DNA from: a virus
Taxonomy: Duplodnaviria > Caudoviricetes
IMG/VR virus record: IMGVR_UViG_3300010356_002264
Reading direction: 5' to 3' (one strand)
Length of the DNA stretch: 64,000 nucleotides
Shown: one piece after another, positions 17,601-63,716 of the stretch
Layout of the letters: each line of letters opens with the position of its first letter
Numbering within the stretch: the first letter of the stretch is position 1
The notes under the pieces: model-generated
Databases searched by the model: none
What the model was told of the DNA's origin: nothing
Seen by the model: only the letters and a program-made list of their open reading frames with translations
Position numbers and translations under genes: made by a program

Positions 17601-19301
17601 GAGGCGGGCATCCTTGTGCGGGTGCTAGAACGGCTGGGAGGTCCAGGCTCTGCCCCCACGGGTCCTGAGGACGAGAAGGCCCGGCGCACTGCGGACCTGC
17701 TGCGCATCCTCGGGGACCGCAAGGCGGCCTTCCTGTCGGACGAGGTGCCGGGGCGGTACCGCTACTACTCCGCCTCACACCCCGACCCGAGCGAGCAGGC
17801 TCCTCCGTCGATCGTGCTGCTCCGGCAATCGGGGGGGACGACCGACGTCGAGACGGTGCCCGAGCCTGTGGACCCAGCCTACGTGGGTGAGACGACGCGG
17901 GGCTTGCTGCCCGCGGAAACCGCTGAGCGGCTCGACCTCGTCAAGGTGGCGAAGGTGCGCCCGCAGCGCGGTGTGCGGGTGCTCACGAGCAAGACGACAG
18001 CCCCGCGAGGAGAGGTGATCCCGTCGCACCACGTGCAGGAGGTGCGTCTCGCTCCGGTCTCCATCCGTTACGACCTGCCCGTGCGGGAGAGCGAGGGGTG
18101 GACGAACCGAACGGGCATCCTGCGAGAGGTGCGTTCCGATGCGCTGAGCCGGTTCCTTGGGGCCGCGCGGGACGCGGGCATATCCGCCTCATCTGTCCTG
18201 AAGGACGTGATGGCGACTCCCTGGGCGGAGGCGGCTGTGGCGGTCCCCATCGCGGAGGCGGCTGCGCGGGCGGCTGTAGCTCTCGACCTGCCCCGTACGG
18301 GGGTTCCGACGCTCCCCGCGGAGGTCATCGCGAGGGGACAGACCGCGCGGACAGACGCTCCGCTTGGACCCCTGGGAACCCCTGATTGGGTGGAGGCGGC
18401 GTGCGCGAGCCTGGCCGACTCGATGCGGTTTCAGGTGGAGGCGAACGCCTCGGCATGGGAGCGCGCGGTCACAGGGGCCAACGGCCCGGATGTGAGTCGA
18501 AAGGCGATCGACACCTTCTGGGGAAGCCTTGCGGGCCGCCTCCGCGTCTCCGTGACCTCCCAGGACCGGCGCGAGGTCAAGGAAACCAAGAGGAAGGAGG
18601 TCCAGGTACAGGCACCGGTGTTCCCTGTATCCGACGAGGGGGGCTACCAGGTTATCGGGGCCTACCGATACGGACGAGGCGTCCAGCCTGGTGCGGGTGG
18701 GGCGTGGTCTGACCTGCGGAAGCAGGACCCCCTGTCGCTGCTCAGCCGGACGACGGTGGACCAGGTACTCGACGAGGTCGTTACCAACCGCAAGCCCAGC
18801 GCCGAGCTATCTGAGAAGGTCGCGCGGACGCTCCGCGAGAACCTCCAGGACGACGACCTCCTAGAGCTCGGCCTCCTGCGGAAGAAGAAGGACACCGACC
18901 AGCTGGAGGTCGACCTCCTCAACTGGGTCGCCAATGGTCGGGAGGGCGTCCACAAGTTGCCTGCGGGCAACACCCCGACGGAGCTCGGGGACATGGCGCT
19001 CGACCCCGGACGTCCTCTCGACACGGGCTGCGTGTGCAAGGTGTCCCCGCCAGGCGAAGTGGTGGACGAGGACCTGCTCGGTGACCCAGGCAGCGTGACG
19101 GAGGCGCTCGTGCAGCGCGCCGACCAAGTCGCACCCCAGTGGCGGCAGCGGCAGGACGCCGTGCGTGGGGCCGGGCCAGGCGTGCGTCCCGCAGGGTCGT
19201 CGAGCACAGTCGCGCAGGTTGACCAGGCGGCTCGGCAGCTTGAGGCTGCGTTCTCGGGCTTCGGCGACCCTGACAGCTCGCGCAGGGGACCCGTGGGGTA
19301 G
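14631..19301 (+). CDS. baseplate hub-like tail protein with an inserted N-acetylmuramoyl-L-alanine amidase (Amidase_2) domain
   Basis: VVVHES...SAHYTVDADG...HAGAHNARSVGIE amidase; hub motifs FEFFQDVDGDFVFKP, IPLRPELRPGYPVY, YYVTGITHSY. Confidence 0.75.
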   Translation: MSATSNRPYAGTWKEGGYPTVDVAPDTVVRINGGWSLLSCARCGSRIDVNRYVIETTVEAGTEPGGTSATFTLSLPATLAWYQASRVIPVGAEVEVFMRGYFPATGLFPDLDPPERTVAAAQASALTPAPDAPSTVEVEDKTKKSKLGSRPRNQAITQVVVHESDTRSSAETEAALGHRHLSAHYTVDADGSVARLVPESRVASHAGAHNARSVGIEVSNPDYGRDARPGQQVIRAPWMDKGSYAVPPREQTESTWRLTQDIARRNNVPVSFPAERGDSFRMTSISSDQANQPGIISHAQLSGNKADGSFEVLYGAIRSRGYDPDEAYDRAVQAAQQGSTVTLPPKRPPDNPPSPARVEPPRDDVTLSREGGRAGTEDLAAYPYYPVFRGVVTNIGEGRSEGAVTLSVQCASLLHFWQYQVVSSNASVFGVRPSGSGLKTSDLGHNLVGRHPYQILYELHYDEVGAAAGVEWALTQKTNRDARTDGGQTYKFLRDYWTARFSSKEVKLRMHAATGQLLTALQSAFLARTPTDDLLRAQREKNPSPLLRGNKGTGILDQAYTLNLLRPDSDTLRTSSKGAPLEFNLAEMQAFVSNLGEWGQFQYFESAYETKMDVAQKVCEVTGFEFFQDVDGDFVFKPKMYNMDTSPLRAYRIEPHEILSWNADEKEPPVTYARVRGSRFENLSGTGTEGVWGIEGQYVDYRLVAQFGWRPLEIESASVTNPTTAFYLAASKVDESNALTSTATVTIPLRPELRPGYPVYVRSRDCFYYVTGITHSYSQGGNAQTTLQMVARREPFRPPGVVGGEARGIQAVTLGNPSNPPRSVVARTDDGALREVGFPNVILALDPTRLDPVYLRAGVGFDNIDNPAVLRALLETAADQRIIRRLGNGTYEADIPDDRGGSRPVRLAAGSGAGPGGVDVLKSASVIARSRKATQKERAKLEAKLREAESAGSDPTGGKAAQKKRDEAAKLREQLRGLDSSASLSSQEAAEAGILVRVLERLGGPGSAPTGPEDEKARRTADLLRILGDRKAAFLSDEVPGRYRYYSASHPDPSEQAPPSIVLLRQSGGTTDVETVPEPVDPAYVGETTRGLLPAETAERLDLVKVAKVRPQRGVRVLTSKTTAPRGEVIPSHHVQEVRLAPVSIRYDLPVRESEGWTNRTGILREVRSDALSRFLGAARDAGISASSVLKDVMATPWAEAAVAVPIAEAAARAAVALDLPRTGVPTLPAEVIARGQTARTDAPLGPLGTPDWVEAACASLADSMRFQVEANASAWERAVTGANGPDVSRKAIDTFWGSLAGRLRVSVTSQDRREVKETKRKEVQVQAPVFPVSDEGGYQVIGAYRYGRGVQPGAGGAWSDLRKQDPLSLLSRTTVDQVLDEVVTNRKPSAELSEKVARTLRENLQDDDLLELGLLRKKKDTDQLEVDLLNWVANGREGVHKLPAGNTPTELGDMALDPGRPLDTGCVCKVSPPGEVVDEDLLGDPGSVTEALVQRADQVAPQWRQRQDAVRGAGPGVRPAGSSSTVAQVDQAARQLEAAFSGFGDPDSSRRGPVG

Positions 19302-61199: not shown

Positions 61200-61242
61200 G
61201 GGGTCCTAGGACTCCGATGGAGAACGCAGAAGGACGGTGTAT

Positions 61243-61954: not shown

Positions 61955-61973
61955 ACGATAAGGTAGAGTAGCT

Positions 61974-62075
61974 TTACCGACTCCCACGAACGGGCCCTAC
62001 AAGCACAGGTTCGACTCCTGTACCCTCCACTCTTACGGGGGGCGCGGTTAATGGTCCGCTCACTCGAGTTGGTAA
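61974..62075 (+). ncRNA. YrlA-like bacterial Y RNA (permuted tRNA mimic)
   Basis: 10-bp terminal stem, CGAACG motif, then T-arm, loop-closed acceptor stem and D-arm in permuted order. Confidence 0.7.
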
Positions 62076-62078
62076 CAT

Positions 62079-63133: not shown

Positions 63134-63217
63134 GGAGGGTGCTTCTGGGGTGGCCCGGAGCCTGTTTGCTAAACAGTGCGTGTGTAACAGCACAGGGTTC
63201 GACTCCCTCACCTTCCG
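63134..63217 (+). tRNA. tRNA-Ser(GCT), 8/4 fold
   Basis: GGAGGGTG/CACCTTCC acceptor; AGGG/CCCT T-stem. Confidence 0.85.
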
Positions 63218-63235: not shown

Positions 63236-63317
63236 GGGAAGCAAACGCGGTGTGGACCGCGACCCGTCTCGAAAACGGTGTGCTGCAAGGCATGGGGTTC
63301 GACTCCTCTGCTTCCCG
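63236..63317 (+). tRNA. tRNA-Ser(CGA), 8/4 fold
   Basis: GGGAAGCA/TGCTTCCC acceptor; GGGG/CCTC T-stem. Confidence 0.85.
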
Positions 63318-63321
63318 CTCT

Positions 63322-63407
63322 GGAGGGTATCTGCGGTGTGGACCGCAGCCTGCTTGGAACGCAGTGCGCTCGGGCAACTGGGCGGGGTTCGACTCCTCTA
63401 CCTTCCG
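63322..63407 (+). tRNA. tRNA-Ser(GGA), 8/4 fold
   Basis: GGAGGGTA/TACCTTCC acceptor; GGGG/CCTC T-stem. Confidence 0.85.
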
Positions 63408-63409
63408 CT

Positions 63410-63600
63410 TTCCCGGTAGACCAAGAGAAGCGCTGTCCTGGCCCAAGTGCGCCGCAAGGCCCCAAGGTGTCCGGTCGTGCAGCGGGCGCGCATCTGGCGC
63501 GGTTGTAGAGGTCGCCACCCCGACGGGGGAAACCCCAGGAAGATGCCCTGGCAAAGGGATAGTGGTGGAGGTGCCGGTTGGATACCGGCCCGGGATTTCA
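63410..63600 (+). ncRNA. tRNA-scaffold structured RNA with expanded D-loop and anticodon loop
   Basis: All four tRNA stems are present in canonical order, with an 87-nt D-loop and a 44-nt anticodon loop. Confidence 0.65.
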
Positions 63601-63613
63601 TGGTTGTGCAGAT

Positions 63614-63699
63614 GGAGGAACCACCCGACGTGGCGACGGGACCTGTCTTGAAAACAGGCGAGGTGCAAGCCCTTGGGGGTTCGACTCCCTCTTCTTCCG
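63614..63699 (+). tRNA. tRNA-Ser(TGA), canonical 7/5
   Basis: CCTGT-CTTGAAA-ACAGG, long variable arm. Confidence 0.9.
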
Positions 63700-63716
63700 C
63701 AAGGTAGAGTATGCAC

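What the first reader, a model, noticed from the sequence alone, without database searches (positions are those of the whole stretch)
63410..63600. tRNA scaffold carrying two large structured inserts (unknown ncRNA)
Seen: acceptor TTCCCGG (63410-16)/CCGGGAT (63590-96), U8-A9, D-stem GACC (63419-22)/GGTC (63510-13), G26, anticodon stem CCACC (63515-19)/GGTGG (63564-68), variable AGGT, T-arm GCCGG-TTGGATA-CCGGC, and a TTCA tail. Every tRNA helix is in register. The D-loop, however, is 87 nt (CGCTGT/GCAGCG, TGGCC/GGTCG, GCC-GCAA-GGC, CGCGC/GCGCG) and the anticodon loop is 44 nt (GGGG-GAAA-CCCC, CCCT-GGCAA-AGGG), so there is no anticodon. tRNA finders would probably miss it. Inference: a tRNA-processed carrier for functional domains, for example a decoy for anticodon nucleases or aaRSs, or a ribosome binder; a doubly interrupted tRNA is less likely.
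Basis: partly seen in the sequence, partly recalled or inferred. Interest (0 to 1): 0.85.

Follow-up and report, generated by a model that had tools for sequence, protein, structure and literature searches.

The report
Non-decoding tRNA-shaped RNA in phage array
A huge sewage-sludge phage carries, between two serine tRNA genes, a 187-nt gene with every tRNA stem in place but large folded inserts instead of the D-loop and anticodon loop; it is most likely a tRNA look-alike that cannot read codons, a poorly understood kind of phage RNA with no known job.

Summary
All four tRNA helices sit in register at 63410-63596, with an 87-nt D-loop and a 44-nt anticodon loop. In-register, all-Watson-Crick D and anticodon stems arose in only 14 of 20,000 shuffles. 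Rfam and ARAGORN find nothing there.

The window is part of a huge phage (about 331 kb) from activated sludge, with at least 35 tRNA genes. Relatives about 80% identical carry two sister elements. One lies in the same slot and one is 0.5 kb upstream. Both have a tRNA frame and a 59- or 120-nt D-arm that starts with the same GA(A)AAGCGC motif. Both lack C56 in the T-loop, and their anticodon loops are odd (6 nt or variable). The stems differ between the three types yet still pair.

The element is dispensable. Contigs with near-identical flanks (0-2 differences laid) join the two Ser tRNAs directly, skipping 203 nt. Some sister copies are 5'-truncated, and their rate of change is near that of spacers.

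Best reading (0.55): a non-decoding tRNA-like RNA cut out of the array transcript, of the kind annotated in phage T5 as RNA1 and RNA2, here with a novel giant D-arm. Its function is untested. The main rival (0.27) is a decaying tRNA relic. The scan's own unchecked notes report similar tRNA-shaped RNAs in other phages.

The parts
63410..63416 (+). Acceptor stem, 5' strand (TTCCCGG). Position 1 is unpaired (T.T). The predicted RNase P site is just before 63410 or 63411.
   Evidence: pair probability 0.87-1.0. It starts 2 nt after the discriminator of tRNA-Ser(GGA). The cleavage site is inferred, not shown.
63419..63422 (+). D stem, 5' strand (GACC).
   Evidence: It covaries with GCTC/GAGC and GCAC/GTGC in the sister elements.
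63423..63509 (+). Expanded D-arm (87 nt) in place of the D-loop. It starts AAGA-GAGAAGCGC and ends GGTTGTAGA.
   Evidence: The 5' motif GA[AG]A(A)GCGC sits at the same position in the sister elements. Under a Markov null it falls that close to the start in 532 of 200,000 trials (the motif was defined post hoc). The inner fold is unresolved.
63510..63513 (+). D stem, 3' strand (GGTC). G26 follows at 63514.
63515..63519 (+). Anticodon stem, 5' strand (CCACC).
63520..63563 (+). Expanded anticodon loop (44 nt) with two predicted hairpins (GGGG-GAAA-CCCC and CCCT-GGCAA-AGGG). It has no anticodon.
   Evidence: The hairpins are predicted by energy only.
63564..63568 (+). Anticodon stem, 3' strand (GGTGG). 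The 4-nt variable region AGGT follows at 63569-72.
63573..63589 (+). T arm: GCCGG / TTGGATA / CCGGC. The T-loop has G instead of C at position 56.
   Evidence: pair probability 0.99. All 68 canonical tRNAs of these arrays whose T-loop could be parsed have C56.
63590..63597 (+). Acceptor stem, 3' strand (CCGGGAT), plus discriminator T. No CCA is encoded.
63410..63612 (+). The 203-nt unit that is present or absent between strains: the element plus its 15-nt 3' spacer. The empty allele has CC in its place.
   Evidence: L128; runs X4 and X6 have contigs that join 63409 to 63613 with CC. The laid flanks show 0 other letters in X4 and 2 in X6.
63321..63407 (+). Upstream neighbour, tRNA-Ser(GGA), of the 8/4 type.
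   Evidence: Rfam tRNA-Sec model, 32 bits. ARAGORN misses it.
63614..63700 (+). Downstream neighbour, tRNA-Ser(TGA).

Best explanation
The element is a gene for a tRNA-shaped RNA that does not decode. It belongs to a small family found in the tRNA arrays of one clade of huge activated-sludge phages. Inferred mechanism: it is transcribed with the neighbouring tRNAs. Its acceptor/T-arm half makes it a substrate for RNase P at the 5' end and for tRNA 3' trimming and CCA addition. This would release a stable RNA of about 187-190 nt. It cannot act on the ribosome as a decoder. It has no anticodon loop, and the D-loop/T-loop elbow is rebuilt: the D-loop is replaced by a long arm and C56 is lost. Whatever it does would reside in the enlarged D-arm, the family's shared feature, and in this copy also in the enlarged anticodon arm. 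The most plausible role is binding a protein that normally handles tRNA. It is an accessory cassette, swapped or lost by recombination in the conserved flanking tRNA genes. Shown here: the frame, the family, the lack of decoding features, and the presence/absence polymorphism. Inferred only: transcription, processing, stability and any partner.
For: 1. The frame is in register well beyond chance (14 of 20,000 shuffles). ARAGORN accepts it as a tRNA once the inserts are shortened.
2. Sister elements exist in phages about 80% identical. The a-type is at L132:12121-12304. Its unconstrained MFE is a clean cloverleaf with a 120-nt D-loop. It recurs in L140, L139, L144, L149 and L137. The b-type is at L132:12660-12781 and L137:11003-11123, in the same slot between Ser(GGA) and Ser(TGA). 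It has a 59-nt D-arm.
3. All three types start the D-arm with GA(A/G)A(A)GCGC at the same position.
4. All three lack C56: cand has TTGGATA, and the a and b types have TTTGAGT. All 68 parsed canonical tRNAs have C56.
5. Across the three types, 11 of the 21 frame pairs change on both sides and still pair. Only 2 of 63 cells are unpaired (stems listed). The frames are no closer to each other (65-70%) or to any canonical tRNA of the arrays (at most 76%) than unrelated tRNAs are to each other (median 64%, maximum 81%). So they are not fresh copies of a sampled tRNA.
6. None has a normal anticodon loop. The a-type has 6 nt. The b-type has 7 nt in one lineage and 6 nt in another, with 3 substitutions and a 1-nt deletion in that 7-nt loop. 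The cand has 44 nt.
7. No promoter-like site lies in the array and no terminator-like site next to the element. The ORFs over it have no family support.
8. There is a known precedent. The T5 record annotates RNA1 and RNA2 as tRNA-like stable RNAs in its tRNA cluster, and both fold as tRNA frames with an enlarged anticodon arm.
Against: 1. All copies of this element that were retrieved or laid are identical to the window, except 2 differing letters in one short contig of run X9, so it has no usable covariation of its own.
2. Its link to the a and b types rests on architecture, context and a short motif. A covariance model of the b-type does not find it at E <= 10, and BLAST shows no similarity.
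3. The element is dispensable. Contigs with near-identical flanks lack it. The a-type is 5'-truncated in L137 and has lost 2 nt in L149.
4. Within types the rate of change looks close to neutral. The b-type has 6 substitutions and 1 gap in 121 columns. The flanking tRNAs have 0-1 differences, and the neighbouring non-tRNA stretch has 4 in 117. The a-type is 89.7% identical between lineages, against 78-92% for spacers and mostly 95-100% for orthologous tRNAs.
5. In the a-type, substitutions keep 7 pairs and break 4. That is no better than random placement (58% of trials did as well).
6. Folding energy is ordinary (z = 0.14).
7. There is no expression evidence at all.
Confidence: 0.55

Rival explanations
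1. It is a decaying relic: a former tRNA gene (or a copy of an old tRNA-like gene) that picked up GC-rich insertions. It no longer has a function and is being lost from the array.
For: An empty-site allele exists with near-identical flanks. Sister copies are 5'-truncated. Within-type divergence is near neutral, and stems are not preferentially preserved. The b-type anticodon loop is hypervariable. There is a T.T mismatch at acceptor pair 1, and the b-type of L132 has an A.G mismatch. Folding energy is ordinary. The same arrays hold other damaged tRNA genes, for example at L132:12040-12117.
Against: Three types whose frames differ by 30-35% still pair at 61 of 63 stem positions. They share the D-arm start motif and the loss of C56. 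That is hard to get without past selection on the tRNA shape after decoding was lost. None is a near-copy of a sampled canonical tRNA. The element is identical in samples from 2016 to 2024.
Confidence: 0.27
2. It is a real decoding tRNA interrupted by two introns, in the D-loop and the anticodon loop. These are removed after transcription.
For: The frame is a complete cloverleaf. In archaea and some algae, tRNA introns at several positions including the D-loop are known (established knowledge; PMC4090602 and PMC3728597 appeared in search, abstracts only read).
Against: No split of the 44-nt loop leaves a 7-nt loop with U33 (read directly from 63520-63563; constructs). The sister elements have no second insert yet still have 6-nt or variable anticodon loops. 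The T-loop lacks C56. No Rfam intron or ribozyme family matches at E <= 10. The phage has peptidoglycan- and OmpA-related genes, pointing to a bacterial host. By established knowledge, bacteria lack protein-based tRNA splicing at such sites.
Confidence: 0.05
3. It is a small mobile DNA element (MITE-like). Its terminal inverted repeat (TTCCCGG...CCGGGA) only imitates an acceptor stem.
For: There is a clean presence/absence polymorphism of 203 nt, and the ends are inverted repeats.
Against: There is only one copy in the 82.5-kb record. There is no target-site duplication, and the empty site has CC, which the filled site lacks. The T arm abuts the 3' end, and the D and anticodon stems are in register. 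The same slot holds a different tRNA-like element in relatives. This fits cassette exchange through the flanking tRNA genes better than transposition.
Confidence: 0.03

Closest known systems
Phage T5 RNA1 (144 nt) and RNA2 (125 nt), annotated 'tRNA-like stable RNA with unknown functions' (record AY543070)
   Same: They lie inside a phage tRNA cluster, and RNA1 is next to Ser(UGA)/Ser(GGA). They keep the acceptor stem and T arm. The anticodon arm is enlarged to about 55-60 nt, so there is no anticodon (fold). Their function is unknown.
   Different: In the predicted folds the T5 RNAs keep a short D-arm hairpin, and their T-loops read UUCAACU and UUCGAAU, so C56 is present. The element here replaces the D-loop with an 87-nt arm and has G56. 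No sequence similarity was found to any record of the phage collection.
Phage T4 stable RNAs C and D (species 1 and 2) in the T4 tRNA gene cluster (own knowledge, not checked here)
   Same: They are non-tRNA stable RNAs co-transcribed and processed with phage tRNAs, and their function is unknown.
   Different: Their architecture was not compared here, and they are shorter.
YrlA-type Y RNAs (Rfam RF02553)
   Same: They are tRNA mimics of bacteria and phages with a T arm, D arm and acceptor-like stem. They do not decode.
   Different: In YrlA the tRNA-like part is internal and the RNA ends form the Ro-binding stem. Here the RNA ends form the acceptor stem. The YrlA model does not match the element. 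Its only sub-threshold hit in the array spans two Gln tRNAs.
tmRNA tRNA-like domain
   Same: An acceptor stem plus T arm carries a large non-tRNA body.
   Different: The G3:U70 alanine identity pair is absent (C3-G70 here). ARAGORN finds no tmRNA, and there is no Rfam tmRNA match.
8/4 'allo-tRNA'-like serine tRNAs (Mukai et al., PMC5389517)
   Same: They are non-canonical tRNA shapes, and tRNAs of this type flank the element: the neighbouring Ser tRNAs have long D stems.
   Different: Those keep a 7-nt anticodon loop and decode. The element has a 7/5 frame and no anticodon.
Engineered 'tRNA scaffold' for expressing recombinant RNA (own knowledge)
   Same: A foreign structured RNA is inserted in the anticodon arm of a tRNA, so that tRNA processing and folding stabilise it.
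   Different: That is man-made and has a single insert in the anticodon stem.

Membership tests
Canonical tRNA (Rfam RF00005) | Four helices of the cloverleaf in register | tested here: met
Canonical tRNA (Rfam RF00005) | 7-nt anticodon loop with U33 and an anticodon | tested here: not met
   The loop is 44 nt, and no trimming gives U33.
Canonical tRNA (Rfam RF00005) | D-loop/T-loop elbow (G18 G19 with psi55 C56) | tested here: not met
   The D-loop is replaced by an 87-nt arm. The T-loop is TTGGATA, with G56. All 68 parsed canonical tRNAs here have C56.
Canonical tRNA (Rfam RF00005) | Model score at or above the gathering threshold (29 bits), and detection by ARAGORN | tested here: not met
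   No match even at E <= 10. ARAGORN does not detect it.
Phage tRNA-like stable RNAs (T5 RNA1/RNA2 type) | Lies within a phage tRNA gene cluster, on the same strand, abutting tRNAs | tested here: met
   It starts 2 nt after the discriminator of Ser(GGA).
Phage tRNA-like stable RNAs (T5 RNA1/RNA2 type) | Acceptor stem and T arm kept, anticodon arm enlarged, no anticodon | tested here: met
.
Phage tRNA-like stable RNAs (T5 RNA1/RNA2 type) | Accumulates as a discrete stable RNA | not testable with these tools
   No RNA run is listed for this DNA.
Phage tRNA-like stable RNAs (T5 RNA1/RNA2 type) | Sequence homology to T5 RNA1/RNA2 | tested here: not met
   blastn in 'distant' mode against 50,697 phage records gave no match. 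The resemblance is of kind, not of family.
Giant-D-arm tRNA-like elements of this phage clade (a- and b-types, defined here) | tRNA frame with the D-loop replaced by a long arm that begins GA(A)AAGCGC 2-4 nt after the D stem | tested here: met
Giant-D-arm tRNA-like elements of this phage clade (a- and b-types, defined here) | T-loop without C56, and a non-canonical anticodon loop | tested here: met
Giant-D-arm tRNA-like elements of this phage clade (a- and b-types, defined here) | Detectable by a covariance model of the family | tested here: not met
   Model R1 (b-type) finds L140a at 32 bits. It does not find the window element at E <= 10.
tmRNA | G3:U70 pair, tag reading frame, detection by ARAGORN or Rfam | tested here: not met
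   The pair is C3-G70. No tmRNA is called.
YrlA Y RNA (RF02553) | Match to the family model, and a permuted layout with a terminal Ro-binding stem | tested here: not met
   The ends form an acceptor stem.
Intron-containing tRNA | Removal of the inserts leaves a decoding tRNA | tested here: not met
   and direct reading of the 44-nt loop. The sister elements also have aberrant loops.
Intron-containing tRNA | Bulge-helix-bulge motif or a self-splicing intron core at the junctions | tested here: inconclusive
   No Rfam intron or ribozyme match. Bulge-helix-bulge motifs were not searched formally.

The most novel reading that the evidence does not exclude
These giant-D-arm tRNA look-alikes are exchangeable RNA cassettes used in phage-host conflict. 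They would be processed like tRNAs, and would bind and blunt a host defence enzyme that attacks tRNAs at the acceptor end or elbow. Turnover in the slot (three different states in close relatives) and the fast-changing anticodon-side loop would then reflect an arms race. That would be an RNA-only anti-defence device built on a tRNA frame.
Probability: 0.12. Interest if true: 0.8.

Novelty: new variant of a known kind. Interest (0 to 1): 0.5.

Why it matters
Phage tRNA clusters have long been known to hold stable tRNA-like RNAs whose purpose nobody has worked out, such as T5 RNA1 and RNA2. This element and its two sister types show a further design, in which the tRNA elbow itself is replaced by a large arm. 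They also show that such genes come and go between near-identical phages. If they are functional, they mark a class of tRNA mimics that annotation pipelines miss entirely, and that may act on tRNA-handling enzymes rather than in decoding. The with/without strain pair found here offers a natural experiment for testing function. If they are relics, they show how phage tRNA arrays decay and recombine.

Tried and rejected
1. Rfam gave no family for the element at gathering threshold or at E <= 10. It gave none for the sister elements at E <= 1.
2. ARAGORN called neither a tRNA nor a tmRNA there.
3. blastn against 50,697 phage records found no match.
4. IMG/VR scans with an exact 26-mer of the element, and with a protein next to it, found nothing. 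One scan was wasted on a mistyped pattern.
5. A Ser-tRNA pattern returned 120 unrelated loci with no homolog.
6. The a/b-type pattern found nothing in IMG/VR. It gave 3 chance hits in JGI metagenomes: a tRNA-Asp 3' part and two stretches that I judged by eye to be coding sequence.
7. The complete 331-kb contig could not be searched because the record is not held. Protein P0002's contig is not on record.
8. No RNA holder is listed for this DNA, so nothing can be said about expression.
9. A b-type covariance model hits canonical tRNAs and the a-type, but not the window element.
10. A b-like closing stem for the window element's D-arm is possible but costs 3.2 kcal/mol, so the inner fold is left open.
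11. The within-type covariation test on the a-type was not significant.
12. An alternative register in L132a (36-nt D-loop, 91-nt anticodon loop) is not kept in L140a.
13. ORFs across the element on either strand have no credible family support. The only hit, T6SS_TssF, had E = 0.005 and scored below its cut-off.
14. Literature searches found no report of D-loop insertions in phage tRNAs.

Full report
**What is there**

The stretch 63410-63597 lies on the + strand inside a dense tRNA array. The array starts at 61234 and runs past the window's end. ARAGORN finds 12 tRNAs in the window and 35 in the last 12.5 kb of the record. The element sits in a block of four serine tRNAs. Ser(GCT), Ser(CGA) and Ser(GGA) lie upstream and Ser(TGA) lies downstream. 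It starts 2 nt after the discriminator of Ser(GGA).

One caveat: acceptor pair 1 is a T.T mismatch.

Neither ARAGORN nor any of the 4227 Rfam models, even at E <= 10, reports anything between 63410 and 63612. ORFs that cross it on either strand also overlap the flanking tRNA-Ser gene(s) and have no credible family support.

**Is it more than chance?**

Thermodynamics alone says no. The folding energy equals that of shuffled sequence (z = 0.14). The acceptor stem and T arm are robust, with pair probabilities of 0.87-1.0. The D and anticodon stems compete with other pairings (0.11 and 0.03), although the full cloverleaf is only 1.3 kcal/mol above the minimum.

The register is what stands out. 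I fixed the outer parts and dinucleotide-shuffled the interior. A D-stem 3' strand, one spacer base and an anticodon-stem 5' strand at the exact offsets, all Watson-Crick, appeared in 14 of 20,000 shuffles. With G-U allowed it appeared in 2%, and with two variable-loop lengths in 4%. ARAGORN also accepts the frame as a tRNA once both inserts are shortened in silico.

**Where it comes from**

The window is bases 8996-72995 of an 82.5-kb IMG/VR virus record, estimated 28% complete. The same sequence lies on a 331.5-kb ENA contig and on other contigs from activated sludge and wastewater. It encodes a baseplate J-like protein, a 1556-aa protein with an amidase domain, and an OmpA-domain protein. 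The best phage match of the OmpA-domain protein is a 462-kb uncultured phage. So this is a huge phage, probably of a Gram-negative host.

**Presence and absence**

Five independent contigs carry the element with 100% identity. A Logan contig (L128) is 99.7% identical downstream and 93% identical upstream. It joins Ser(GGA) directly to Ser(TGA), with CC in place of 63410-63612.

I laid contigs of four further runs on the stretch. This showed the same join (skips 203, CC between) in two runs from different studies. The laid flanks had 0 other letters in one run (X4) and 2 in the other (X6). Two other runs hold the element.

The element is thus a recent presence/absence polymorphism. There is no target-site duplication, and the filled site lacks the CC. 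This fits cassette exchange or loss by recombination in the flanking tRNA genes better than transposition.

**Relatives reveal a family**

Proteins flanking the array led to contigs of phages about 80% identical in this region. These hold two sister elements.

- *The b-type.* In L132 the slot between Ser(GGA) and Ser(TGA) holds a different 122-nt element, also present in L137. It has a 7-bp acceptor, a D stem GCAC/GTGC around a 59-nt arm, an anticodon stem, a 4-nt variable region, and a T arm with loop TTTGAGT.
- *The a-type.* About 0.5 kb upstream, L132 has a 184-nt element whose unconstrained minimum-energy fold is a clean cloverleaf with a 120-nt D-loop. It recurs at 90-98% identity in L140, L139, L144 and L149. 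It also recurs, 5'-truncated by a deletion, in L137 and L138, and its last 44 nt open L128.

All three types begin the D-arm, 2-4 nt after the D stem, with GA(A/G)A(A)GCGC. Under a Markov null that motif falls so close to the start of the window element's insert in 0.27% of trials. The motif was defined post hoc.

In the b-type this motif pairs with the conserved 3' end of the arm (GCGAGTTTG), forming a closing stem. The a- and b-types also share a hairpin with a GGCC loop. In the window element a b-like closing stem is possible but costs 3.2 kcal/mol.

All three types lack C56 in the T-loop (G in the window element, U in the others). All 68 canonical tRNAs of these arrays whose T-loop could be parsed have C56. 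This fits the loss of the normal D-loop/T-loop contact.

None has a normal anticodon loop. The a-type has 6 nt, which ARAGORN reads as a two-base 'anticodon'. The b-type has 7 nt in L132 and 6 nt in L137, with 3 substitutions and a 1-nt deletion in that 7-nt loop. The window element has 44 nt. Rfam has no family for either sister element.

**Evidence for and against function**

*For function.* The three frames differ from each other by 30-35%. They are no closer to any canonical tRNA of the arrays than unrelated tRNAs are to each other. Yet 61 of their 63 stem positions pair, and 11 of the 21 pairs show changes on both sides (stems). Together with the shared arm motif and the shared loss of C56, this suggests a common origin. 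It also suggests long maintenance of the tRNA shape after decoding was given up.

*Against function.*
- On short time scales the elements look dispensable and nearly neutral.
- There is an empty-site allele, and some a-type copies are truncated.
- The b-type has 6 substitutions and a gap in 121 columns. The flanking tRNAs have 0-1 differences, and a neighbouring non-tRNA stretch has 4 in 117.
- The a-type is 89.7% identical between L132 and L140. Spacers are 78-92% identical, and most orthologous tRNAs are 95-100%.
- In the a-type, substitutions keep 7 pairs and break 4, which random placement matches in 58% of trials.
- All copies of the window element that were retrieved or laid are identical to it, except 2 differing letters in one short contig of run X9, so they give no usable covariation.
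- A covariance model built on the b-type does not find the window element. Its family membership rests on architecture, context and a short motif.
- No RNA run holds this DNA, so expression is unknown.

**Mechanism**

The best-supported reading is that the element is transcribed with the array. No promoter-like site lies in the array and no terminator-like site next to the element. It would then be released by tRNA-processing enzymes through its acceptor/T-arm half, and would persist as a tRNA-shaped RNA of about 190 nt that cannot decode. All of these steps are inferred.

Its enlarged arms would be the working parts, most plausibly as a binding site for a protein that handles tRNAs. I put this at 0.55. 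The decaying-relic reading is at 0.27, a spliced double-intron tRNA at 0.05, and a MITE-like element at 0.03.

**Comparison with what is known**

The kind is known. The T5 record annotates RNA1 (144 nt) and RNA2 (125 nt) in its tRNA cluster as 'tRNA-like stable RNA with unknown functions', and RNA1 lies next to Ser(UGA) and Ser(GGA). Both fold as tRNA frames with an anticodon arm enlarged to about 55-60 nt. T4 RNAs C and D are a further precedent (own knowledge).

The window element shares the setting and the enlarged anticodon arm. It has no sequence similarity to any phage record. It adds a feature those RNAs lack, the replacement of the D-loop by a large arm together with loss of C56.

It is not a tmRNA: the 3:70 pair is C-G, and no tmRNA is called. 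It is not a YrlA Y RNA: the model does not match, and the layout is not permuted.

Unchecked notes from this scan report comparable non-decoding tRNA-shaped RNAs in phage arrays of other genomes. I took from them only the lead to T5, which I checked.

**Verdict**

This is a real and non-random tRNA-shaped gene, a new variant (giant D-arm plus enlarged anticodon arm) of the little-understood phage tRNA-like RNAs. It is accessory and recently gained or lost. Its function is unknown, and its expression is untested.

Noticed in passing
window 63134-63216, 63236-63318, 63321-63407: Ser(GCT), Ser(CGA) and Ser(GGA) are non-canonical tRNAs with long D stems and an 8/4-like acceptor/T layout. They score on Rfam's tRNA-Sec model (33-37 bits) rather than the tRNA model. 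ARAGORN misses two of them (GCT and GGA). They resemble the 8/4 tRNAs described in PMC5389517.
   Followed up: partly
window 61960-61970 and 63701-63711: The 11-mer AAGGTAGAGTA occurs exactly twice on the + strand (0.09 expected). Each copy comes right after a tRNA and right before a non-tRNA unit. It may be a phage promoter or a processing signal.
   Followed up: partly
L132:11953-12038 (also L149:3493-3578, L140:3707-3793): This is another aberrant tRNA-like gene in relatives. It scores 46.5 bits on Rfam tRNA, but has a 15-nt insert in the D-loop and an anticodon loop CAGGCCG without U33. It is absent from the window's lineage.
   Followed up: partly
L132:12040-12117: A hairpin is followed by what I read by eye as the 3' two-thirds of a tRNA-Gln-like gene whose 5' part is missing. 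Deletions starting here remove the 5' end of the a-type element in L137 and L138, and 2 nt of it in L149. The array is a hotspot of rearrangement.
   Followed up: partly
L132:12742-12748 versus L137:11085-11090: The anticodon-side loop of the b-type element has 3 substitutions (all T to C) and a 1-nt deletion in its 7 nt, with one further T to C in the adjoining stem. The 59-nt D-arm next to it has 1 change. This is either local hypervariability or a patch of gene conversion.
   Followed up: no
window 61955-62078: This is a 124-nt gap between tRNA-Lys and tRNA-Gly that holds a T-arm-like segment. The Rfam YrlA model does not match it at E <= 1.
   Followed up: partly
L128:191-556; L137:14402-14980 and 17890-18564; L002:4556-5179: The tRNA arrays of this phage clade are interspersed with LAGLIDADG, HNH and PD-(D/E)XK nuclease genes that differ between lineages. 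They are likely drivers of the cassette turnover.
   Followed up: no
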